Assembly: GCA_964016885.1 (NCBI GenBank)
Contig: CAXHJY010000682.1
Location: forward strand, 1-19,044
Direction: 5' to 3'
Origin: Eledone cirrhosa
Lineage: Eukaryota
DNA length: 19,044 bases
Under the pieces are notes generated by a model, which worked only from the letters and a program-made list of their open reading frames with translations, did no database searches and was not told the DNA's origin. Of this stretch, positions 351-19,044 are shown piece after piece. How positions within the stretch are numbered: the first letter of the stretch is position 1; each line of letters begins with the position of its first letter. The translations under genes and the position numbers were made by a program.

Positions 351-605
351 TGTTATACTTTGGGAGGGTCATGTTGCCAATAAGAAACACACGCACCAGT
401 TGCTTTCACTTCAATTTAATTTAATATATATTTATAAATTTACAAATTTATAAATTTCTGGTTGGTTGGTTGGTTCCACAACCAGATAGTTGTTTATATA
501 TATATAGTCATAGTTCTTTCGTCACACACTCTGTGACCTCTTCAGTGACTGGGGATTTCTTTCTTCGTTTCTGTGCCTTTCCTTTCTTCTATCCTACGCC
601 ATTTT
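351..605 (-). mobile_element. Family A short hammerhead-bearing element (Penelope-like pLTR-type fragment) abutting the TA tract
   Basis: Homologous over about 250 bp to 12774-13014 (starts TGTTATACTTTGGGAGGGTCATGTTG). Contains a minus-strand hammerhead. The right boundary is only where homology to the second copy ends. Confidence 0.7.
506..550 (-). ncRNA. Minimal type I hammerhead ribozyme (family A)
   Basis: Minus strand reads AGTCA-CTGAAGA-G-GTCACA(gagtg)TGTGAC-GAAA-G(aa)C-TA-TGACT. Stem I is 5 bp, stem II 6 bp after one extra G, stem III 2 bp. Cleavage triplet CUA, predicted cut between 511 and 510. Confidence 0.8.
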
Positions 606-1034
606 GTTTGTGTGTGGGTTGCAATAATAAAATGTATCATACCTAAACTGTTCCTAAATTCCTCGACTACGTAGTTTCGTGGCATAAACAAAAACAATAT
701 ATCAAAGATATAGAGTCCCTGCGAGGTCTGCCGACTTATCAAGAGGATACCTCATTTTACTAGTCTCAAGAACGCGTCTACACGACGTGAGAAAGAATCC
801 CAAAAGGCGGAGGGGGAGATAGTCACGCGATACAACGGTCGAGAAACAGAGCTAAGCTTCTTATAACCACGAAAAAAATACCACGGAGGCGGAGTGTTAC
901 ATTCCTGACTTTACCAAATAGAACAACATTTCGTCAGCTAGAGTTCAGTGACGTCACATACTTTAACCAGTCTTTAAGAGGAACTTTGTTTCACGTACTC
1001 TGTTGTTCTTCACGGTTAAAGACTAAAATATGTC

Positions 1035-4548: not shown

Positions 4549-4752
4549 GCGTGCTGTCAGTAGGCTTAAAAAAGATCAAGACAACGTGAAACAGATTGAT
4601 GAAAGATAGAAAGATGAGACGCCCCCCCCCCCCCCTCCCCCACACACACACAAAAAAGAAATAAAATAAAAAGCCACAAAGAGATGAGATGCAGGATTTA
4701 GAGACAAGTTTGAAAAGAAGAAAACATTAACAATATATTAAAAGAAAGATCG

Positions 4753-4978
4753 GGTGGTGGATTGGCAGTATCGGTAGAGGGTTGGACGCCATGCTTTGTA
4801 GCACAGAGTTACGGCCCTTTATGATCTGAGTTCAAATCCCGCCGAGGTTAACTTTGCCTTTCATCCTTACGGGGTGGTTGATAAAATAAAGAACCAGTCA
4901 TGCACTGGGATCGATTTAATCGACTTTCCCCCCCTCTTCCCAAATTGCTGGCCTTGTGCCTATATAAGAAACCAATAT
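4753..4978 (+). mobile_element. tRNA-derived SINE, family 2 (Meta-domain-like)
   Basis: A box-like TGGCAGTATCGGTAGAG, B box GAGTTCAAATCCC, then GCCTTTCATCCTTACGGGG..GATAAAATAAAG..CCAG, which resembles the MetaSINE domain. About 11 copies or fragments in the window. Confidence 0.85.
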
Positions 4979-4990
4979 TTTCTTTTATGA

Positions 4991-5190
4991 GTGGTGGATT
5001 GACAGTAATCGGTAGAGTGTCGGACGCTTTGCTTTCTAGCATAGAGTTACGTCCCGCCGAGGTTAACTTTGTCTTTCATCCTTACGGGAGGTCGATAAAA
5101 TAAAGTACCAGTCTTGCACTGGATCGATTTAATCGACCCCCCCCCCTCTTCCCAAATTGCTGGCCTTGTGCCTATATAAGAAACCAATAT
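4991..5190 (+). mobile_element. SINE family 2, head-to-tail copy with the B box deleted
   Basis: Aligns to 4753-4978 but lacks the CTGAGTTCAAAT segment. Confidence 0.85.
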
Positions 5191-5485
5191 ATTAAAAGAA
5201 AGGAAACTGTGAAAGATGATGAAGGAATTTCTCCTAATCTGATATGATTTGACACTGGGAGAGTATTTAGACATAGAAACATCATAAAGACTCGCATTAT
5301 TGGCGGTAAATAACTGATCTGCTGATTTATCTGTTCACAGATATAAAGAGTATCTAGAGATAGAAGATTAATACTAAAGATGCTTTCCTCCCCGACCCAA
5401 CCAAATAACAAAACAGATATAGAAGCCGAATGTAGGGAGGGCGGAACTAGCTTTTACCTCGTCTCTATCTCTATCTATCCCTCTC

Positions 5486-5940: not shown

Positions 5941-6649
5941 GACTTTGTAACTCATCATATCAAAGACTGGATGTTTTCTTCTATTTTCTCTTCTCTGAAA
6001 TCCTTTCAATTCTCTTTATTTCCCTACAGCCTCAATCCTGACTTTTATCTCTCAGACTCCATAGAATAAGTTCCTAGCAAGATGGTGTAGTATTCACTTA
6101 CTAGACTGTATTCTCTACACTGTTATAAAGAGAAGCTGAAAAGGATTTATTTGGGGGGAGGAGGAGGTGGGATGGATTCATAAATCGTGAATTTCGTTAA
6201 AACTTGTGATGTTTCGTGATTGTTCGGAAATATCCATGAAAACAATTCTCACTTCACATCTCTCGTGGCTTCAGTGAATAATAATTTTGGTTTAAAACTT
6301 GGCGGTATTTTAAATATCTATCTCAACGATTTCGTGTAAGTAAAAAAACTACATATTTTTTCAACTATATATTCCTGAATAATTCTTTGACAAACCATTT
6401 AAAGCATCATAAATATTTTGGTAAATTTTCTTCAGTTTGAACAGATTTTATACACGACAATATCAAAACACCCGTTCAACGTATTCCATTCTTTTCTTAT
6501 TACTATTTTATTCAGTTTCTCAATTATTTTTTTTTTACCAAATGAAATTTTGTATATCTCTGTAAATTTATTAGAAACTATATTTTATATTTGATAAATA
6601 TGTTTTTTAAATTTTCTTGTACGTCAGTCAACCTAGCATAGAAATAATT

Positions 6650-6778
6650 GTTTCTGGTTTAGGCACATGGTCAACAATTTGGGGGGAGAGTAAAGTTGAC
6701 TAAATCGATTCCAATGTGTTACTGGTATTTAATATTATCGACCGTTGTGGGATGAAAGGGAAAGTTTGAACTAAACTT
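6650..6778 (-). mobile_element. SINE family 2, decayed 3' fragment
   Basis: Reverse complement of the Meta-like domain and tail (AAATCGA...ACTGGTATTT...TATCGACC...GGATGAAAGG). Confidence 0.7.
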
Positions 6779-6858: not shown

Positions 6859-7164
6859 GTAATAATAATAAATGTGAAGACTAAAATACAAAGAGGGCTC
6901 GATAACGATAAATATATATCAAATATATAAGAACCCTAGAGCAAATATTTATTAAAATAACAGATTAAAGTTTAAGCATATAATCGCTGCTTAAGTCAAT
7001 AGAGTGCTCAACCGAGGCAGCCAAATAGTAATTTAAAGTATCGTCTTCCTGTTTTCCTTCGGTTGCAACGTTTTTCGAAATATTTACTTCTGCGTTCACA
7101 GATGCTCCCGTTAAGGGTGAAAGCAGCCATTCTTTGCTTAAACTTTAATCTGTTTTTTTTAATA
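6859..7164. mobile_element. Family B two-armed inverted element between TA tracts
   Basis: Arms 6950-6992 and 7121-7164 are inverted; the left arm has about 90 extra outer bases. Homologous to 13647-13844. Confidence 0.75.
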
Positions 7165-7190
7165 TATATATATATATATATACACACATA

Positions 7191-7401
7191 CAGGGTGTCC
7201 CAAAAGTCACATAGGGGTTTTAGTTTTTATTAACTTCCTGAATTGTACAGATTGATGTATGAAATTTTGATACAACTTAAAGGACATAATGGAAATTATT
7301 TTGCACTCGTCAATCCTTGTCACACCTCTACATTAATTATGAAAACATTATTAAAAAATTATAAACAGTTGCGACCCCTGTGTGACTTTTGGGCCACCCT
7401 G
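7191..7401. mobile_element. 211-bp Tc1/mariner-type MITE
   Basis: TA|CAGGGTGTCCCAAAAGTCACATAGGGG ... CCCCTGTGTGACTTTTGGGCCACCCTG|TA; 27-bp TIRs with 2 mismatches. Confidence 0.9.
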
Positions 7402-7404
7402 TAT

Positions 7405-7555
7405 AATAAGGAAAAGAAATTGAAAATGCAACTGGAGTCATTTAAGAATATTTATTTACTGTACCGGTTTCACAGATCTTATGATTTTCCAAAGTAAAAT
7501 TGAGATTGAGGGTTCTTAAAGACTCCAGTTGCATTTCCAATTTCTTTTCTTTATA
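7405..7555. mobile_element. Small two-armed inverted element
   Basis: About 43-bp inverted arms at 7405-7448 and 7513-7555; minus-strand GAAACCGGTA at 7462-7471. Confidence 0.6.
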
Positions 7556-7595
7556 CTTTTACTCATGCGGGACATTAAAAAAGCCTTACTTTCTT

Positions 7596-7598
<3 letters not shown>

Positions 7599-7642
<44 letters not shown>
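7599..7642. repeat. (TA)n microsatellite
   Basis: Direct reading. Confidence 0.95.
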
Positions 7643-7649
<7 letters not shown>

Positions 7650-8100
7650 TCGCGTGTGTAACTTCCTATTCTTTATCACAAATTATTTTCTTCCTTTTAC
7701 TAAATCCTCTATCTACCTAATCTCCGTGTTTGTGTAAAACATCAAATGACATACGAGAATTGATAAACTGACTGTGAACTGTGAACTGATGTCAATTACC
7801 GCTAATATCTAACTTCATTTCCGTAGCCATTTCCCCTTCCAAATGCACAGATTGCTAATATCATGTATTCACATTTTCCTGTGTGTTTCCTGTATGAAAG
7901 AATTGATAGAATTGAACATTTGACAGCATAAAAAAATATTACTTATTCTCTACACTCTCTTTCGTATTTTATTTCTTTCGCTCAATTTTTCTTTATCTCT
8001 CGCAATGTTCAATATAATATTTGTATTTAAGTGTTCTTATATTCTAACATTTGATTTATTGTATGCTTAATCCTTATTAGTTATTTTATATATTTACCCA

Positions 8101-8270
8101 AGGAGGCGAATTGCCAGAGTCATTAGAACGGCGGATATAATGCTTTACGCTATTTGTTCCGGATGTCTGCTTTCTGAGTTCAAAAACCAAATAGGTCAAC
8201 TTCGCCTTTCAGCCTTTCTGAGTTGATAAAGTACCAATCATGTCCAGGGGTTGATTTAATTGATTTTCTT
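8101..8270 (+). mobile_element. SINE family 2, diverged copy
   Basis: GGCGAATTGCCAGAGTC head, CTGAGTTCAAA B box, GGTCAACTTCGCCTTTCA...GATAAAGTACCA. Confidence 0.75.
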
Positions 8271-8280
8271 TTACCTACAA

Positions 8281-8440
8281 AGGCTGCGAATTGGTAGAGT
8301 GATTAAGATGTCGGATAGAATGCTTTACGGTATTCGTCCCATATCATTTCGCGCTCTGAGTTCAAATCCCACTGGGGTCAACTTTGTCTTTCATCCTTCG
8401 TGGTCGATATAAAAATACCAGTAAACTACTGGGCTGGATT
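8281..8440 (+). mobile_element. SINE family 2, diverged tandem copy
   Basis: CTGAGTTCAAATCCC, then GGTCAACTTTGTCTTTCATCCTTCGTGGTCGATA...TACCAGT. Confidence 0.8.
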
Positions 8441-9267
8441 CTTCCTCAATATCTCTTTCTCATTTTCACTCTACCACTCTCTATTCTTCTCTAAAAGAAA
8501 TCTACTATGTTCAGACCTGGAGAGGAGATGGGCTCACCCAGATTTTTAAATGCCCAAGAAACGTCTCCACGAGTCTCCCTGGAGTTACGCGACCATAGCA
8601 AAACATACCATATTTATTTAGGTACTTATTTCTCTTTTCTCTTTCGTTAAACATCATAATACTTTCTTCGTATATGATTTGATACTGTTAGGTCAATTGT
8701 ATTTTATATTCTGAAGTATATAGACTTGAAATACATAAAAATCCGATTAATCGGACGATAAGGCCTTGATACAAACGGAAAAACATTCCTTTACCTGATG
8801 TTAATGGATTAAGCAATAAACACAATAGGCTGTGTTTTAATTTGAACATTTCTCAGTGATCCAATTGCTATCAACAGGATAAAACTAAACAAATATGAAA
8901 CAAATTGTTTGAACAAGATAATTAAAAATATAATCAATGCTACTCTAGTGATTGAATGAAATGATCGCTATTGATCTGATCAAGCAAATATTAGATGGAT
9001 CTGAATCAAGTTTTGATAGATTAATACGAAGATTATTGTACAAACGTTTGAGCAGTCGAGGGGGTTTCTATTTAGTTGTTTAACCAGCATGAAATAATGG
9101 TAAAATATTTCTCAAATAATGCAGTTACGTCCTTAGATAATATTTAAACATTGGATAATATAGTCCTAAATATATATTTACTTGGAAATCAAACATATTT
9201 ACAAGGGATACACATGTCATTTTAGATTACGTGGTCAAGGATTAGCTGGGATGAAAGAACAATAGTA

Positions 9268-9422
9268 CTAGTTTCTGATTTAGAAACAAGGCCAACAATT
9301 GTTTATTGGGGAGTGCGGGGGGGGGGGGGGGGCGACTAAATCGACCTAACTGCGTCATGGGTAGTTAATTTTATCGATCCCGTAAGAATGAAATTCAAAA
9401 CTAACCTCGACGGGATTTGAAA
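9268..9422 (-). mobile_element. SINE family 2, 3' portion
   Basis: Reverse complement from the B box (GGGATTTGAA) through the tail (CAAGGCCAACAATT). Confidence 0.7.
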
Positions 9423-9437
9423 TAAATAATAATAATG

Positions 9438-9573
9438 ATTTCTAGTATAGGCTCAAGGCCATTAATTTTGGGGAGAGGAAAGTCGATTAAATCTACCCCA
9501 GTTCATTACTGGTACTATATTTTATTGACCTCATAACGATTAAAGGCAAATTTAACCTCGGCGGGATTTGAAC
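9438..9573 (-). mobile_element. SINE family 2, 3' portion (tandem)
   Basis: AAAGGCAAATTTAACCTCGGCGGGATTTGAAC is the reverse complement of the B box plus Meta-like domain. Confidence 0.75.
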
Positions 9574-9583
9574 ATAGAAACAT

Positions 9584-9614
9584 GCACACATATACACAGA
9601 TACATGCACACACA

Positions 9615-9675
<61 letters not shown>

Positions 9676-9813
9676 ACACACACACAGACACACACACACA
9701 CACACACACACAGACACATACGCACAGACACATGCACAGATACATCGACAGGCACAGAAGCACAGACAGGCACACACACACACAAACACACACACACACA
9801 CACGCACGCACAC

Positions 9814-9867
<54 letters not shown>

Positions 9868-9905
9868 AGACACAGACACAGACACAGACACAGACACGCA
9901 CACAT
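9584..9905. repeat. Degenerate (CA)n microsatellite
   Basis: Direct reading. Confidence 0.95.
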
Positions 9906-9908
9906 ATA

Positions 9909-10009
9909 CAGGGTGTCCCCAAAAAATGTATACACACTTTGATTACCGGTACAGGCAATATTTATCAGAATGCTACTGAAGTGTGTATACGTTATTTTGG
10001 GACACCGTG
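9909..10009. mobile_element. 101-bp Tc1/mariner-type MITE (duplicate of 1650-1750)
   Basis: TA|CAGGGTGTCCCC...GGGACACCGTG|TA. Confidence 0.85.
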
Positions 10010-10066
10010 TATATATGTAGGAGGGGAGTGAATATCGATAAGATTTACCCGCTGACTACCTTAACG

Positions 10067-10346
10067 GGGCTTGGTGGTAAGTGTGTTGGACTTACGATCA
10101 TAATGTCGTGGGTTCGATTCCTGGGCTGTGTGTTGTTCTTGAGCAAAACACTTCATTTCTCGTTGCTCCAGTATACTCAGCTGAAAATGAGTACCAGCAG
10201 CAATAACCAGAGGTGGCGGGTTAACCCTGCGATGACAGGTGTTCTGTCGAGGCGGGGTGGGGTGGGTAGTCTTGTATTCTCAGTCGCTTCAGACAACGGA
10301 TACCGGAATAAGCACCAGCCTGATGACCCCCGGGCTCGAGACTTTA
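10067..10346 (+). mobile_element. tRNA-derived CORE-like SINE (duplicate of 1035-1320)
   Basis: GGCTTGGTGGTAAG A box-like sequence, GGTTCGATTCC B box, CORE-like domain. Confidence 0.8.
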
Positions 10347-10513
10347 GACATATTTTAGTCTTTAACCGTGAAGAACAACAGAGTACGTGAAACAAAGTTC
10401 CTCTTAAAGACTGGTTAAAGTATGTGACGTCACTGAACTCTAGCTGACGAAATGTTGTTCTATTTGGTAAAGTCAGGAATGTAACACTTTTCTGCTTATC
10501 TTGTTCCTATATA

Positions 10514-10820
10514 CGAGGGTCGGCTGAAAGGTTCATAGGCTGATCAAGATACTCTCATGGAATGACCAAATGAGGTATATTTTTCAACATAGTCCCTGGA
10601 AAGAAACAATGCAGTTATTATACTAGGTTTGACTGAAAGGTTCATAGGCTGACTAAGATACTACCATGGAATGACCAAACGAGGTTTATTTTTCAACATA
10701 GTACCTGGAAAGAAACAATGCAGTTATTAATAAGAAGAGTTGAAATTAATGCATGTAAGATTTCACAGCTCTAGCATCATTCCTTCATGGTCAGCCTATG
10801 AACCTTTCAGCCGACCTCCG
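10514..10820. mobile_element. mariner-type MITE with a duplicated left end
   Basis: TA|CGAGGGTCGGCTGAAAGGTTCATAGGCTGA ... TCAGCCTATGAACCTTTCAGCCGACCTCCG|TA. The first 107 bp (10514-10620) recur, diverged, from 10623. Confidence 0.88.
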
Positions 10821-11377
10821 TAAGTCTATTTTGAGTTTTTGCTTTCATCACTCTGTGTTGGAATTATTAAGTATTTTTCTGTTTATTTCTCCTCTGGCTT
10901 TAAATAAGTTCAATAAAGTTCATAAGTAGGTCTTCGGTTAAATCTCTAACTAATTGTTTATTCAATCAAGTAGTTTATCAAGTTGTGATGTCTAGACTTC
11001 TTCAAAGTAGCAGAACCGACCCATTAACATCATAAGCATTATGTCATTAATCCTAACATGTATTCTTTTACACTGAAAGGAAATTCTATCTAATCTAATC
11101 TGGCCGAGTTTACACTCGCAAATAAGAAGAACCAGGGCCGCCCCTAGAAGCATTGGATTTGGTGTACTTCATATTTGTTTCGGTTGCTGAATACAATCAG
11201 GGGTCGCTGCTTCTCTTGAAGGTCAATAGTTCTCTTCTAACTCGAGCGGGAGTGCCTTTCCATTGTTAATTTGCAATGACCATCTGCAAAGCCACATTAT
11301 TCTCAGAACCACTACACCAGTCTTTCGATGCGTGCAGCTGGAACTACTGCCACCCATTGATTTGGCAGCATCGCAAC

Positions 11378-11520
11378 TCAATTCTACAGCTGAGTAAACT
11401 GGAGCAACGTGAAATAAAGTGTCTTGCTCAAGGACACAACACATAACTCAATCCGAGAATCTAACTCACAACATTTCGATTGCAAGCCCAATGCTCTAAC
11501 CACTAAGCCGTGCGTCTTCA
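11378..11520 (-). mobile_element. tRNA-derived CORE-like SINE, head plus core
   Basis: CAGCTGAGTAAACTGGAGCAACGTGAAATAAAGTGTCTTGCTCAAGGACACAACAC...CTAACCACTAAGCC matches 1200-1314. Confidence 0.8.
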
Positions 11521-11580
11521 CACAGTTGTATATATACAAAGTCTAAGGCCGATATACAACTTAGCCCTAGTGACGTCGCA

Positions 11581-11726
11581 ACTCATTTCTCATTTCTACA
11601 GCTGAGTAAACTGGTACGACGTGAAATAAAGTTTCTTGCTCAAGGATACAACACATCACTCGGTCCAAGAATCGAACTCACAGCCTATTGATTGCAAGCC
11701 CAATGGGCTAACCACTAAGCCATGTG
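11581..11726 (-). mobile_element. tRNA-derived CORE-like SINE, head plus core
   Basis: Same motifs, with GAATCGAACTC (B box, reverse complement) and CTAACCACTAAGCCA (A box, reverse complement). Confidence 0.8.
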
Positions 11727-12034
11727 TTTATCAAAACGAACAAATTACAAATCAATGTAATTATTTGCTAATTAATTCAAATCTGCGAAGGTCTAGACTG
11801 AATAATTGGCTTGATACATTGTAAAGGAGCAACAAAATAACCCGTCCCTAGATATTATTACAATGAACAGATAAGTGGGTCGATCGATTAATAGACAGAT
11901 AATTAAACTGAATATATTCATGCAATGAATTCATGTAAAATTCTTGAGTACTTTATTTGTGTAATATTTCTATTACAATTTCTCATAAAGCTGAGTAATG
12001 TTTGTTCTTTTGTAACAAATAAGTTGTCAACATA

Positions 12035-12329
12035 CAAGGGTTAGCTATAAAGTTCATAGGCTGTAAAGTTGATAGGCTGACCAAGATACTCTTTGAAAAG
12101 AATCAATGCAGTTATTAAGAGGGGTTGAAATTAATGCATGCAAGATTTCACAGCTCTAGCATCACTCCTATATAGACTGAGCAAGATACTCTCATGGAAT
12201 GAACAAATGAGGTTTGAAAAGAAACAATGCTGTTATTAAGAGGGGTATTAATTAATGCATGCAAGATTTCACAGCTTTAGCATCACTCCTTCGTAGGCTG
12301 ACCAAGATACTCTCATGGAATGACCAAAT
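12035..12329 (+). mobile_element. Tandem array derived from the 10514-type MITE
   Basis: TA|CAAGGGTTAGCTATAAAGTTCATAGGCTG left end, then the internal unit repeated from about 12071, 12172 and 12293; no right TIR seen. Confidence 0.8.
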
Positions 12330-12477
12330 CGGCTGTTGTTACAATTATTTTCTGCACTTGGAGTCCAAGGTTTTCTAAAGAATTTCAAACTACCCAGCTC
12401 TAGCATAACTTAGCAGCTTGTTACATCAAAGCTGTTTGGAAGTAGCAGCCTGCTATGGAATCTGAGGCCAAAGTCCC

Positions 12478-12540
12478 TTTAGCACAATGGTTAGAGTACA
12501 TGACCAGAATTTGAAAGCTACGGAGTTCGGCTCTTCCTGT
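12478..12540 (+). mobile_element. Degenerate tRNA-like head (probable SINE relic)
   Basis: TAGCACAATGGTTAGAG (A box) and GGAGTTCGGCTC (B box-like) at tRNA spacing. Confidence 0.4.
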
Positions 12541-12773
12541 CAGCTGCTGGCCACATTTTCCGGTTAATAGAAGTATTTTACCCGATTTATTAAGTTATTA
12601 TTTATAGCAATCGACTGTTGTTACTATTACTACTTTCTGCGTTTAGGATACTTACACATTCTAATGAATGAATATATATATATATATATATATATATGTT
12701 TATATATGTATATATCGTTTCTGAATTTGTTTAGCAAGATTATTTATCTGAAAACGTGTGTTGAAACCGATAT

Positions 12774-13114
12774 TGTTATACTTTGGGAGGGTCATGTTGC
12801 TAATAAGAAACACACGCACCAGTTGCTTTCACTTCAATTTATTATAATAAATTTATAAATTTAGGAATTTATAAATTTCTGGTTGGTTCCACAACCAGAT
12901 GATTGTTTATATATTGTCAAAGTTCTTTCGTCACACATTCTGTGACCTCTTGAGTGACTGGGGATTCTTTTCTTTGTTTTTGTGCCTCTCTTTTGTTCTG
13001 TCCTACACCATCTTATTAAATTCCTAAATTTATAAATTTATTATAATAAATTGAAGTGAAAGCAACTGGTGCGTGTATTTCTTATTGGCAACATGACCCT
13101 CCCAAAGTATAACA
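12774..13114. mobile_element. Family A two-armed element with 98-bp inverted arms and a core-mutated hammerhead
   Basis: Arms 12774-12871 and 13017-13114 differ at 2 positions. Minus-strand GTCA-CTCAAGA-G-GTCACA(gaatg)TGTGAC-GAAA-GAAC-TT-TGAC at 12916-12958. Confidence 0.85.
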
Positions 13115-13137
13115 ATATATATATATGTGTGTAAATA

Positions 13138-13389
13138 TAGGGTGTTATAAAGCAGGCTTTGTTTACAAACGGCTAGCGAATTTGAAAATTAGGTAGTAAC
13201 GTACGCTTACGCCGTATTTGACTAAATAGAATTAGTCTGTTAGTTGGCATTTAAAAAAACCCCTCTAAATGGAAAAAAGGATGAGTATTGACTAATTCTA
13301 TCTACTCAAATACGGCGTAAGCACATGTTACTACCTAATTTTCAAATTCACTAGCCGTTTATAAACAAAGTCTGCTTTGTGCCTCCCTA
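13138..13389. mobile_element. Family F two-armed element with 100-bp inverted arms
   Basis: Arms 13138-13237 and 13290-13389; the spacer and left arm are the reverse complement of 13518-13619. Confidence 0.8.
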
Positions 13390-13409
13390 TTTATATACAT
13401 ATATATATA

Positions 13410-13614
13410 CCTGCTATGGTTCTATTTGAATAGAAGGAAGCATAGGTGGCATGTTGGTGTAATGGTCACACACTGGTCCGACAAACGAAAGATGTGGGTT
13501 CGTGTCCCATGTGCGTTAATACTCATCCTTTTTTCCATTCAGTATTTTTTTTTAAAATCCCAACTAACAGTTCAATTCTATTTAGTCAAATACGGCGTAA
13601 GTACATGTTACTAC

Positions 13615-13619
<5 letters not shown>
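13410..13619 (+). mobile_element. Family F copy containing a tRNA-like unit, between TA tracts
   Basis: The 3' half matches the family F arms; the 5' half carries A and B boxes. Confidence 0.7.
13448..13518 (+). pseudogene. Degenerate tRNA-like sequence (GAC at the anticodon position)
   Basis: A box TGGTGTAATGG at 13455, T arm GTGGG-TTCGTGT-CCCAT at 13494-13510, tRNA-like length. Acceptor and anticodon stems pair poorly. T6 run at 13529-13534. Confidence 0.55.
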
Positions 13620-13646
<27 letters not shown>

Positions 13647-13649
<3 letters not shown>

Positions 13650-13836
13650 ATAATAAAAAATCCAAAGAGGGCTCGATAAGGATAACTATATATCAAATAT
13701 ATAAGAACCGTAGAGCAAATATTTATTAAAATAACAGATTAAAGTTTAAGCAAAGAATCGCTGCTTTCACCCTTAACGGGATCTTCTGAAACAGTTTCAG
13801 AAAGCAGTGATTCTTTGCTTAAACTTTAATCTGTTA

Positions 13837-13844
<8 letters not shown>
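13647..13844. mobile_element. Family B two-armed element, second copy
   Basis: Arms 13724-13767 and 13801-13844; junction palindrome CTGAAAC-A-GTTTCAG at 13786-13800; TA tracts on both sides. Confidence 0.8.
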
Positions 13845-13880
<36 letters not shown>

Positions 13881-13881
<1 letters not shown>

Positions 13882-14356
13882 GATATTAAATAAATGGAAA
13901 CTATATTTATAAAACCATTTTATTTTTCCTCTCTCTATATATCTCTCTCTGTTTCTTTACATGAATTTCTTCTCTCTATCTATCTCTCTATATCTATCTC
14001 TCTCTATTTAGTTGCATGCATTTCTTCTTTTTCTTCGCTTTTTTTCTTTCTTTCTTTTTATAACTGTCCCTAACATTTTTCACTACCAAATCAACTTTTT
14101 AAATGGAAGTTGAAGTTGAAAGGTATGTCAAATGTATCTATTTATAAGACTGTTTATATTGTATTTTGTCTGAAGAAGGCATACCATATTTTTAATATGA
14201 TATCCCTGAAATATATATAATGAAATAAATATGGTTTTATAAATATAGTTTCCATTTATTTAATATCGTAAATATACTCCAAATACTTGTTGAGTGCTTT
14301 TATATCAGTTATAAATATTTACTCGTTGTAACCCAACAATTTAAATAAAACTTTGC
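13881..14356. mobile_element. Family C two-armed hammerhead element between TA tracts
   Basis: The short minus arm 13881-13918 is the reverse complement of 14231-14268. The plus arm carries the hammerhead and about 88 further tail bases. Confidence 0.75.
14162..14227 (+). ncRNA. Type I hammerhead ribozyme (family C)
   Basis: TATTTTGT-CTGAAGA-AGGcATAcCATATT(ttt)AATATGaTATcCCT-GAAA-T(atat)A-TA-ATGAAATA. Stem I is 8 bp with two G-U pairs. AUA cleavage predicted after 14219. Confidence 0.82.
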
Positions 14357-14383
<27 letters not shown>

Positions 14384-14387
<4 letters not shown>

Positions 14388-14532
14388 ATTAATAAATGGA
14401 AACTATATTTATAAAACCATATTTATTTCATTATATATATTTCAAGGATACCAAGTTAAATCATGGTATGCCTTCATCAGACAAAATACTATATATAACA
14501 GTTTTACAAATAGATATTGATGTACCCTTTCA
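14384..14532 (-). mobile_element. Family C element, second and diverged copy, inverted
   Basis: Reverse complement of about 14118-14268; ends at the TA tract at the same point as 13881. Confidence 0.8.
14424..14488 (-). ncRNA. Type I hammerhead ribozyme (family C)
   Basis: Minus strand reads TATTTTGT-CTGATGA-AGGcATACCA(tgatttaact)TGGTATcCTT-GAAA-TATATATA-ATGAAATA. Confidence 0.82.
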
Positions 14533-14754
14533 AAAAGGTGACCGTTGCTTTTGGAGGCCATCCGATTAGTGGTTTCTTTACTTTAGTAAGTCATAGTGTT
14601 AAGAGTAAGTAAAAAGATGGAGAGAGAGAGAGAAACGTGGAGAAAAGAAAGGGAAAGATAGATAAAGAAAAAGAAGAAAGCAAAAAGAAAAAAGAACAGA
14701 GGAAAAATAACGGAGATATCAAAACATCAGACAGAGAAAGAACTCAAGAGAGAG

Positions 14755-16085
<1,331 letters not shown>

Positions 16086-16204: not shown

Positions 16205-16825
16205 GTACCAGTAATGCACTGGGTAATTGCTGGCCTTGTGCTTAAAGTAGAAACAATTAAATAGAGATAAGGGTGATGGATTGTCAGTATCGGTAGAGCG
16301 TCGGACAAGCTTTGTGGCATAGTTACCTCGCATGATGTTCTGAGTTCAAATTCAGCTGAGGTTAGCTTTATCTTTCATCCTTACGGGGTCGATAAACAAA
16401 GCACCAGTAATGTACTGGGGTACATTTAATCGAATTCCCCCTCCCCCCTAATGCTGGCCTTGTGCCTATTATAGAAAGAACGTCAGACACCATGGTTTGC
16501 AGCTTAGGAGCTGTGGCGGCTTTTTACGTTCTCAGTTCAAATCCTTACAGGTTAACTTCGCCTTTACGGGGGTCGATAAAATAAAGTACCAGTAATACAC
16601 TGGGTATTTGCTGGCCTTGTGCCAAAAGTAGAAACAATTATTATTATTTGGCAGTATCGGTAGAGGGTCGGACGCCATGCTTTCCAGCATAGTTACCTCC
16701 CTTTACGATCAGAGTTCAAATCCCTATAGGTTAACTTAGCCTTTCATCTTTACGGGGTCGATAAATAAAACACCAGTAATGCACTGGGGTAATTGCTGGC
16801 CTTGTGCCAAAAGTAGAAACGTCAT
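16205..16825 (+). mobile_element. Head-to-tail cluster of four SINE family 2 copies or fragments
   Basis: Tail only at 16205-16258; copies at about 16270-16480, 16515-16640 and 16649-16822, each with GTTCAAAT, GGGGTCGATAAA and GCTGGCCTTGTG. Confidence 0.85.
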
Positions 16826-17597
16826 TATTATCGTTTCTATTGTTGTTGTTGTTGCTGTAATTACTGATTATCTGTTTGCTTGGAGCTCCAGCAATTACTA
16901 TTAATACCGTATAACAACAGTTTACAGCTAAATATATAACAAAGGTCTTTACATAATGGAATAATTTCAGTTCATTAATTGCAATTTAGATCTTTAAGAT
17001 AATTACTTTGACACATATCGAATGAAGTTAAGAGATAATTAAAATATTTCTTATTTATGATGAACAAATTCGCCAGAAAATTCGACCACTGGTCAAGTAA
17101 TATCTTGCCTTAAGATTAACAAGTTAGATTGCTTTCACTGTTTCCAACTTCATAAAGATATTATATATGTATGCAAAGCTTACATATTTATGAATGCTAA
17201 TTAGAAATTAAATCTTGCATACGGGAAATTTACTATTTACAATTTTAACATGCCTACAGGGTAAAATTTTATTTTACTTTGATATGATGGAAATGTTAAT
17301 GAATATAATTGCCATATTGTTAATATGATTTCATTAAAGAAGGGAGCTTATCTATCAAAATCTTAACATATTTTAATACATAATTACGTGATTCTCGTCG
17401 CTCAGCACTAAATCTACACCTGACTGTTCAGGTCTTGTATAATTCGGTTTTTAATGGAATCTAAACTGAAGAAAATTCTTCGTATTGATGATCAATAAGT
17501 AGATAATTCCATTATTAGAGGCGTTAAAGACACATTTTCTAATTTTGATCAAATAAATACAAGGTATATTGTAAGTATACCCTTCCTACATATTTAG

Positions 17598-18100
<503 letters not shown>

Positions 18101-18102
18101 AT

Positions 18103-18350
18103 TATTATACTTGGGGAGGGTCATATTGTTAGTCATATTGTTATAATATTGCCAGTAATAATAACAGAACCCACTCACTCAATGCCAAGACTGGAATTGA
18201 ACCACCAAGACAGTTGAGGTATGTCATACATCAATTCGTGTATTTTATCTGATGAGGACGTACTGAAAAAACAGTACAGTACCTCCGAAATATATATAAT
18301 AAAACATATATTTTGATTATGTGAACGTCTTCATTTATTAATATTTTGAA
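18103..18350 (+). mobile_element. Family D hammerhead element (distant relative of family C) preceded by a family A-like terminus
   Basis: 18103-18127 TATTATACTTGGGGAGGGTCATATTG resembles the family A end. 18240-18345 aligns loosely to 14161-14266, including the CATTTATTAATAT tail. TA-rich tracts on both sides. Confidence 0.65.
18238..18307 (+). ncRNA. Type I hammerhead ribozyme (family D)
   Basis: GTG(ta)TTTTAT-CTGATGA-GGAcGTACTG(loop)CAGTACcTCC-GAAA-T(atat)A-TA-ATAAAA-CAT. Canonical core with a G-C closing pair on stem II. AUA cleavage predicted after 18298. Confidence 0.88.
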
Positions 18351-18404
18351 TAATATATATATACATATATATATACATATATATATATATGTATATGTAT
18401 ATAT

Positions 18405-18741: not shown

Positions 18742-18848
18742 CAATTAAGTTAAAAATGTACATCTACATATGTATACTGAAATACTAGTGTGCATATGAA
18801 TACACACACGTATACATATGTAGATGTAACAAGTCTTTCACTGGTTGC

Positions 18849-19044
18849 TTTACTGTGAGCAACCCAGCTGTTCTGTATGTAAACACACAGACAAACCGGT
18901 TTTTAGAGTCATACTGGTTTTCGAGGAAACACCTTCCCTCTATTCTAGAATAGAGGGAAGGTGTTTCCTCGAAAACCAGTATGACTCTAAAAACCGGTTT
19001 GTCTGTGTATTTACATACAGAATAGCTGGGTTGCTCACAGTAAA
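18849..19044. repeat. Spacerless palindrome with arms of at least 98 bp, centre 18946/18947
   Basis: ...CCCTCTATTCT|AGAATAGAGGG...; 2 mismatches over 98 bp; runs to the window end. Confidence 0.97.

What the first reader, a model, noticed from the sequence alone, without database searches (positions are those of the whole stretch)
6859..14356. Recurrent tail-outward two-arm architecture with a fixed asymmetric tail
Seen: families A (12774-13114), B (6859-7164 and 13647-13844), C (13881-14356), F (13138-13389) and the 7405-7555 element all consist of one copy joined head-to-head to a shorter inverted copy of its own 3' end. The inner junction differs between the two B copies. In both B copies the right arm stops at TTAATA while the left arm runs about 75-90 nt further. 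In C, two arms stop at the same point (13881 and 14384) while the third runs about 88 nt further. Known: Penelope insertions often show an inverted, 5'-truncated pLTR and an extra tail on one terminus. Inference: both ends of a break in (TA)n primed reverse transcription at two preferred positions, so these are not transposase TIRs.
Basis: partly seen in the sequence, partly recalled or inferred. Interest (0 to 1): 0.72.

Follow-up and report, generated by a model that had tools for sequence, protein, structure and literature searches.

The report
Penelope retroelement ends in TA repeats
These short back-to-back repeats are most likely leftover ends of Penelope-like retrotransposons inserted into TA microsatellites, a known pattern, although one neighbouring repeat carrying a tRNA-like head may be an unusual passenger of the same machinery.

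Summary
The head-to-head, tail-outward structure is real in all 6 two-arm insertions examined (A2, B1, B2, C1, the 7406 element E, F1). Five have unequal outer ends. F1 alone is symmetric. Only B's tail is shown to be fixed, by two copies.

New evidence: type I hammerhead motifs lie in A and C and in a related arm D, with 4 exact-core hits against 0.005 expected. They sit 96-194 nt upstream of the short ends and point outward. B has only a degenerate core; E and F have none.

This matches the published Penelope-like (PLE) pattern: inverted 5'-truncated pLTR, optional tail, (TA)n targets. In vitro, a PLE extends both nicked strands from two start sites. No RT or endonuclease gene was found, so clade membership is unproven. 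In B1 neither arm contains the other, which favours two priming events over simple fold-back; B2's palindromic junction fits fold-back.

Most novel lead: F1 plus the adjacent tRNA-headed F2 may be one PLE-style insertion of a 280-nt unit. Known architecture, unnamed families.

The parts
12716..12773 (-).
   Evidence: the left arm continues past the point where A1, A2-right and A3 stop, up to a degenerate TA run
12774..13017 (-). A2 left arm, the 5'-longer arm; carries a hammerhead with one core mismatch (C3 at 12954)
   Evidence: 227/248 identical to A1
13013..13114 (+). A2 right arm, 5'-truncated, short end; overlaps the left arm by about 5 nt
   Evidence: 2 of 100 columns differ from the left arm, 8 of 100 from A1
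351..608 (-). A1, solo arm of family A with short end at (TA)n and exact-core type I hammerhead (C3 545, cleavage nt 511)
18099..18131 (-). A3, remnant with the A short end, joined without a TA run to arm D
   Evidence: 29/33 identical to A2
18132..18352 (+). D, C-related arm with exact-core hammerhead (C3 18249), ending at (TA)n; its 5' limit is not defined
   Evidence: 52/63 to C1; fold z -3.4
6859..6992 (-). B1 left arm: 43 nt shared segment plus 91-nt tail (6859-6949)
   Evidence: 127/133 identical to B2 left arm
6993..7164 (+). B1 right arm, short end; family-B identity shown for 7099-7164, 6993-7098 unassigned; degenerate hammerhead-like core at 7099
   Evidence: 65/70 identical to B2 left
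13647..13790 (-). B2 left arm with 77-nt tail (13647-13723); degenerate hammerhead-like core at 13788
13792..13844 (+). B2 right arm: begins as a 9-bp palindrome around 13791, lacks 18 nt bounded by a 3-nt direct repeat, short end
13881..13925 (-). C1 left arm, 45 nt, short end
13926..14115 (.). C1 spacer, CT-rich, no alignable second copy
14116..14356 (+). C1 right arm with exact-core hammerhead (C3 14170) and 88-nt tail (14269-14356)
   Evidence: 143/155 identical to C2
14384..14533 (-). C2, solo arm with short end and exact-core hammerhead (C3 14480)
7406..7448 (-). E left arm, short end; abuts a Tc1-type MITE at a TA
7513..7598 (+). E right arm (7513-7554) plus about 44-nt putative tail; spacer 7449-7512 unassigned; no hammerhead
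13138..13292 (-). F1 left arm; its 5' end falls at the position of the tRNA/body boundary of F2
   Evidence: 91/103 identical to F2 13515-13619
13290..13389 (+). F1 right arm; same outer end as the left arm; about 3-nt overlap at the junction
   Evidence: 103/119
13410..13617 (+). F2: 38-nt hairpin leader, tRNA-like head 13448-13518, body with T6 and T9 runs; ends at (TA)n 52 nt short of the F1 ends
   Evidence: Rfam tRNA 28.1 bits, E 0.0036, just under gathering 29; ARAGORN negative
7188..7404 (.). Control: symmetric 31-nt-TIR MITE with TA on both sides, inserted between B1 and E; not part of the PLE structures
   Evidence: the Tc1/mariner label is recalled from its terminal sequence

Best explanation
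A, B, C, D and probably E are 3'-terminal (pLTR) remnants of several endonuclease-bearing Penelope-like retroelement families, or of non-autonomous derivatives, inserted into (TA)n. Likely mechanism: (1, inferred) the element's GIY-YIG/RT protein cuts both strands of a TA run; (2, inferred from published in vitro work) each free 3' end primes cDNA on the element RNA, starting at one of two internal positions, a short start and a long start 44-91 nt further 3', which gives the tail; (3, inferred) both cDNAs stop early and are joined in the middle through 0-5 nt of overlap. The product is two arms head-to-head with 3' ends facing outward. The same 3' segment occurs twice, so the template was two RNA copies or one tandem or circular RNA. 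Shown here: the geometry, discrete ends reused by separate copies, differing inner junctions in B, and outward-pointing hammerheads in A, C and D. Confidence in PLE origin: A/C/D about 0.9, B 0.8, E 0.6, F 0.5. Confidence in dual priming as the route: about 0.55.
For: Hammerheads: 4 exact-core type I motifs plus 1 with a single core mismatch in 19,044 nt, both strands; all 5 lie in A, C or D. In 200 shuffles the exact-core mean was 0.005 and the maximum 1. They show PLE-type features listed in PMC4209133: palindromic helix III in 3 of 5; an extra base before helix II in 2 of 5 as parsed; G10.1-C11.1 in 3 of 5 as parsed. All 5 point toward the outer TA-joined end, C3 lying 96-194 nt from the short end. 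Hydra-clade consensi place the motif near the 3' end in the same way and prefer (TA)n (PMC8557442 supplement). Discrete ends: A short end 3 times, B short and long ends twice each, C short end twice. Of 9 homology-defined short ends, 7 lie within 2 nt of a perfect (TA)4+ run, against 5.4% of non-array positions within 6 nt. B1: the right arm holds at least 22 nt of family sequence absent from the left arm, and the left holds a 91-nt tail absent from the right. Literature: inverted 5'-truncated copy and tail at either end (PMC8557442, PMC3846280); both strands cleaved and extended, and the tail lies between two RT start sites (PMC11167929).
Against: No RT or GIY-YIG coding sequence was found: Pfam on 8 frames gave nothing significant, and the frame upstream of A1 had no homologue. 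Rfam matched no hammerhead model in four searches covering these motifs. My descriptor was tuned after seeing the sequences, though it follows the published minimal-hammerhead features. B has only a core with 1-2 mismatches and fails the full test; E and F have none. Tails of 44-91 nt exceed the 30-40 nt reported. No match to the published Naiad, Chlamys or Hydra consensi (0 of 5 motifs; four octopus 3' ends compared by eye). A2's arms share 7 differences from A1, which a fold-back would also give. B2's junction is a palindrome. Short ends overlap the TA target by 2-4 nt, whereas PMC11167929 reports initiation without homology; with AT-rich ends this cannot be resolved here. Only 2-3 copies per family were available.
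Confidence: 0.8

Rival explanations
1. Same PLE origin, but the inverted arm comes from self-priming (fold-back) on the element's nucleic acid, as proposed in PMC3846280, not from priming at the second end of the break.
For: The B2 junction is a 9-bp palindrome with a 1-nt spacer. The A2 arms differ at 2 of 100 columns and share 7 differences from A1; the C1 arms share about 3 differences from C2. In A2 and C1 the short arm is a subset of the long one.
Against: In B1 neither arm contains the other, unless there was a later deletion. Four of 5 junctions scanned have palindromes of only 2-4 bp. Published in vitro extension of both nicked strands (PMC11167929).
Confidence: 0.3
2. They are MITEs or foldback DNA transposons with long TIRs, moved by a transposase. 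This is plausible only for F1.
For: F1 has symmetric ends, about 100-nt inverted arms and no hammerhead. Real TA-flanked MITEs occur in the same window.
Against: Five of 6 two-arm insertions have ends offset by 44-91 nt; solo arms exist (A1, A3, C2, F2); the two B copies differ inside; hammerheads sit in A and C. F's spacer is the upstream continuation of one arm and leads to a tRNA-like head in F2.
Confidence: 0.1
3. DNA-level fold-back inversions at fragile (TA)n runs, or assembly artefacts, duplicated whatever lay next to the array.
For: The window has a roughly 1-kb inverted duplicate, 99% identical over 425 nt, and a 98% palindrome running off the window end.
Against: Arms are 2-13% diverged; separate copies reuse the same end positions; hammerheads are far above chance.
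Confidence: 0.04

Closest known systems
EN+ Penelope-like elements with inverted pLTR and tail (Penelope/Poseidon, Neptune; Adineta Pen2a; Anolis PAc)
   Same: Head-to-head inverted 5'-truncated copy, tail on one terminus only, AT-rich target, type I hammerhead upstream of the 3' end.
   Different: No ORF here; tails are 44-91 nt against 30-40 nt reported; no target-site duplication can be read in (TA)n.
Hydra-clade PLEs, including Hydra-1_Obim (PMC8557442)
   Same: (TA)n preference, hammerhead close to the 3' end, an inverted 5'-truncated copy noted for Penelope-13_HM; B's core resembles the listed Hydra core layout.
   Different: No sequence match to the published consensi; a clade cannot be assigned without RT.
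Naiad PLEs (Naiad_Obim, _Ovul, _Omin)
   Same: (TA)n preference, inverted copies and tail, no canonical hammerhead (as in B, E and F).
   Different: 3' ends do not match by eye; A, C and D carry complete hammerheads.
Non-LTR retrozymes (PMC7229834; bioRxiv 10.64898/2026.07.22.740005)
   Same: Short non-coding units with a type I hammerhead, proposed PLE derivatives.
   Different: No tandem hammerhead-bearing units in the window.
L1 twin-priming inversions
   Same: Both ends of a break serve as primers.
   Different: Described as copying two different regions of one RNA; here one 3' segment is present twice.
Tc1/mariner-type MITEs (7188-7404 in this window; label recalled)
   Same: Short, inverted ends, TA context.
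   Different: MITE ends are symmetric at a single TA; A, B, C and E ends are not.

Membership tests
EN+ Penelope-like element | PLE-type RT plus GIY-YIG endonuclease ORF in the element or its parent | tested here: inconclusive
   None in the window. The copies are short 3' remnants, so absence is expected; parents could not be fetched because no eukaryotic genome collection was available.
EN+ Penelope-like element | Type I hammerhead in the pLTR, in sense orientation | tested here: met
   Met for A, C and D. Core only in B; absent in E and F. Rfam models did not hit.
EN+ Penelope-like element | Inverted 5'-truncated copy joined head-to-head | tested here: met
   6 of 6 two-arm insertions; sense direction fixed by a hammerhead only for A and C.
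EN+ Penelope-like element | Optional tail on one terminus, with two discrete 3' ends | tested here: met
   Both ends replicated in B; tail seen once each in A, C and E; F1 alone lacks it. Lengths exceed published values.
EN+ Penelope-like element | Direct pLTRs or partial tandem | tested here: inconclusive
   Not seen for A, B, C or E; F1-right plus F2 may be one (280-nt repeat distance).
Hydra clade | RT phylogeny and EN lacking CCHH | not testable with these tools
   No protein sequence in the window.
Naiad clade | N-terminal EN, CxC motif, no canonical hammerhead | tested here: not met
   A, C and D have complete hammerheads. For B, E and F only the absence of a hammerhead fits; the protein features are untestable.
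MITE / TIR transposon | Symmetric terminal inverted repeats and fixed interior | tested here: not met
   Not met for A2, B1, B2, C1 and E; symmetric in F1 only.
Non-LTR retrozyme | Tandem units, each with a hammerhead | tested here: not met
   No tandem arrays overlap the hammerheads.
tRNA-derived SINE (for F) | Pol III head transcribed through the body | tested here: inconclusive
   tRNA-like head present just below gathering score, but a T6 run 10 nt downstream, shared by F1 and F2, should stop Pol III (terminator rule from general knowledge).

The most novel reading that the evidence does not exclude
F (about 13138-13617) is a single PLE-style insertion of a 280-nt non-coding unit that carries a tRNA-like module and no hammerhead. 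It reads as an inverted arm with tail, then a partial tandem (F1-right, leader, tRNA-like head, body) ending at the short start site. The inverted arm's 5' end falls at the tRNA 3' boundary, as if tRNA 3'-end processing, not a ribozyme, made the RNA's 5' end. That would be a tRNA-bearing passenger of Penelope machinery. Separately, 18099-18352 may join an A-type arm to a D-type arm in one break, direct genomic evidence that two different RNAs are copied at the two ends. Two literature searches listed no paper whose title or abstract start describes a tRNA-headed PLE passenger; that is weak evidence of absence.
Probability: 0.2. Interest if true: 0.62.

Novelty: new member of a known kind. Interest (0 to 1): 0.3.

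Why it matters
The architecture is textbook for Penelope-like elements, so the finding is not a discovery in itself. It has two uses. Such remnants look like MITEs and could be misfiled by automatic annotation. And how the inverted pLTR and tail form is still open (PMC11167929 and PMC8557442 both say later steps are unvalidated): a genome this dense in short two-arm copies lets dual priming and fold-back be separated by counting non-nested and two-family insertions.

Tried and rejected
The repeat finder was swamped by microsatellites; masked self-BLAST replaced it. The first hammerhead scan found 3 motifs and missed family A because it allowed no extra base before helix II; one search corrected this. 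Rfam found no hammerhead family at gathering level or at E up to 10 and no tRNA near 18090-18250, so a tRNA head for A3 was dropped. Folding z-scores were weak for 5 of 6 segments and strong only for D; they are not used as evidence. A 115-codon frame with one stop upstream of A1's hammerhead was tested as an ORF remnant: no Pfam hit, no longer homologue, no representative hit for its 69-aa part; the Atlas look-up gave no result. Rejected as unsupported. Matching to published Naiad, Chlamys and Hydra consensi failed; line breaks or divergence can hide a 12-mer. A scan of bacterial and archaeal genomes for stray copies of the B tail found 0. No target-site duplication could be read in the TA runs.
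Full report
Setting. The window is AT-rich, repeat-dense eukaryotic DNA. I saw no convincing protein gene among the 94 listed frames, most of which are microsatellite translations. Its dispersed SINE-like repeats and TA/CA arrays resemble an octopus genome; that label is recalled and was not tested. Masked self-BLAST and pairwise alignments define the families.

Observation. Five of the 6 have unequal outer ends. The A short end recurs 3 times (351, 13114, 18103) and the C short end twice (13881, 14384). The long ends of A, C and E are defined by the next TA run, so their adjacency to (TA)n is circular. Of the 9 short ends defined by homology, 7 lie within 2 nt of a perfect (TA)4+ run; the other two abut a degenerate run and an inserted MITE. 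Background is 5.4% of non-array positions within 6 nt. F1 alone is symmetric.

What they are. A scan for complete type I hammerheads (helix I and II at least 4 bp, core, short helix III, cleavage triplet) found 4 exact-core motifs: A1 at 545(-), C1 at 14170(+), C2 at 14480(-) and a C-related arm D at 18249(+). It found one more with a single core change in A2 at 12954(-). Of 200 dinucleotide shuffles, 199 gave no exact-core hit and one gave a single hit. The descriptor was written after I had seen the sequences, and Rfam's hammerhead models did not hit. The motifs show traits described for PLE hammerheads in PMC4209133 (parts 1-2 of 4 read): palindromic helix III (3 of 5), an unpaired base before helix II (2 of 5 as parsed) and a long helix II. 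All 5 point toward the TA-joined end, 96-194 nt upstream of the short end. This fixes the sense strand for A and C and confirms 'tail-outward'. B has only a core with 1-2 mismatches and a 3-bp helix II; the two B copies are the sole hits in the window (shuffle means 0.035 and 0.425, post-hoc descriptor). E and F have nothing. No RT or endonuclease remnant was found.

Known pattern. PMC8557442 (passages; supplement parts 1-2 and searches) describes an inverted 5'-truncated copy at the 5' end, a 30-40-bp tail at either end, (TA)n bias in Naiad and Hydra, and hammerheads in Hydra and the other canonical clades. It lists octopus Naiad and Hydra families. PMC3846280 (passages and Discussion) shows inverted pLTRs with a tail and palindromic junctions, and proposes self-priming. 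PMC11167929 (abstract, main text and start of methods; supplement not read) shows a purified PLE protein cleaving AT-rich DNA on both strands, extending both, and starting at two internal sites that bound the tail. PMC8969392 (passages) lists inverted pLTRs and 3' extensions as curation features. PMC13282606 (part 1 of 3 and passages) counts 31 recently active Penelope-like families in Octopus vulgaris. None of 5 motifs matched the published consensi, and four octopus 3' ends differ by eye. The families are therefore unnamed in what I could see.

Mechanism. Best reading: both ends of a cut TA run prime cDNA, one at the short and one at the long start, and the truncated products join with 0-5 nt of overlap (A2 about 5 nt, F1 about 3 nt; C1 and E cannot be determined). 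B1 is the informative case. Its right arm has at least 22 nt of family sequence that the left lacks, and its left has a tail that the right lacks; a simple snap-back copy cannot give this without a later deletion. Against: B2 is a near-perfect fold-back (9-bp palindrome, then an 18-nt deletion at a 3-nt repeat), and A2's arms share 7 differences from A1. So both arms of A2 came from one source sequence, or were homogenised later. This is not L1 twin priming as summarised in PMC2246262 (one passage; the original paper was not read), because the same segment is copied twice. The short ends overlap the TA target by 2-4 nt; whether this is priming microhomology or chance in AT-rich ends is unresolved. 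The steps of cleavage, priming and joining are inferred; only the products are shown.

MITE test. The window has its own controls: 7188-7404, about 1649-1751 (duplicated at 9907-10010) and about 10512-10820 have symmetric ends. A, B, C and E do not behave like them.

Family F. F2 (13410-13617) lies directly behind F1 in the orientation of its right arm and has a tRNA-like head (13448-13518; 28.1 bits, E 0.0036; not called by ARAGORN). It ends 52 nt short of F1's ends. Read together, F1 and F2 form an inverted arm with tail plus a partial tandem of 280 nt, the canonical PLE layout, and the three arms are about equally diverged (3-5 of 44 columns). F1's inverted arm stops at the tRNA boundary. 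A T6 run 10 nt behind the head argues against an ordinary Pol III SINE. Two independent neighbours, or a MITE, remain possible; this rests on one locus. Searches for such elements (listings only) showed none. Retrozyme papers (PMC7229834 passages; bioRxiv 10.64898/2026.07.22.740005 part 1 of 5) cover hammerhead-bearing tandem units, not this. PMC6962438 (passages) only counts hammerheads in giant squid.

Verdict. Known architecture in unnamed families: interest 0.3.

Noticed in passing
893-1957 versus 9718-10488: Inverted duplicate of about 1 kb, 8 kb apart: 99% over 425 nt, 94% over 196 nt, 98% over 53 nt. Its breakpoint at 892/893 may cut off A1. Recent duplication or assembly error.
   Followed up: no
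18849-19044: Palindrome with no spacer, 96 of 98 identical per arm, running off the window end; possible read or contig-end fold-back artefact. A weaker palindrome lies at 18759-18828.
   Followed up: no
18099-18352: A-type short end on the minus strand joined without a TA run to the hammerhead-bearing arm D on the plus strand, with a 12-nt tandem repeat at the join; possible two-family head-to-head insertion.
   Followed up: partly
12716-14533: Six insertions (A2, F1, F2, B2, C1, C2) are chained, separated only by TA-rich runs: repeated use of one microsatellite.
   Followed up: partly
14755-16085: Compound (TA)n satellite with a short CC-containing unit that flips strand several times near 15840-16000.
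   Followed up: no
4752-5194, 6642-6766, 8100-8440, 9333-9579, 16205-16831; 1191-1314, 10068-10191, 11377-11727: Many diverged copies of two dispersed families that look like tRNA-derived SINEs; resemblance to octopus SINEs is recalled, not tested.
   Followed up: no
7188-7404; 1649-1751; 9907-10010; 10512-10820; fragments 12040-12330: Symmetric TIR elements of Tc1/mariner appearance; 10512-10820 has an internal 109-nt tandem repeat.
   Followed up: partly
545-889 (-): 115-codon frame with one internal stop, ending at A1's hammerhead core; no homologue found.
   Followed up: yes
1310-1593: 27-nt minisatellite, 10.7 copies, present in only one of the two inverted duplicates.
   Followed up: no
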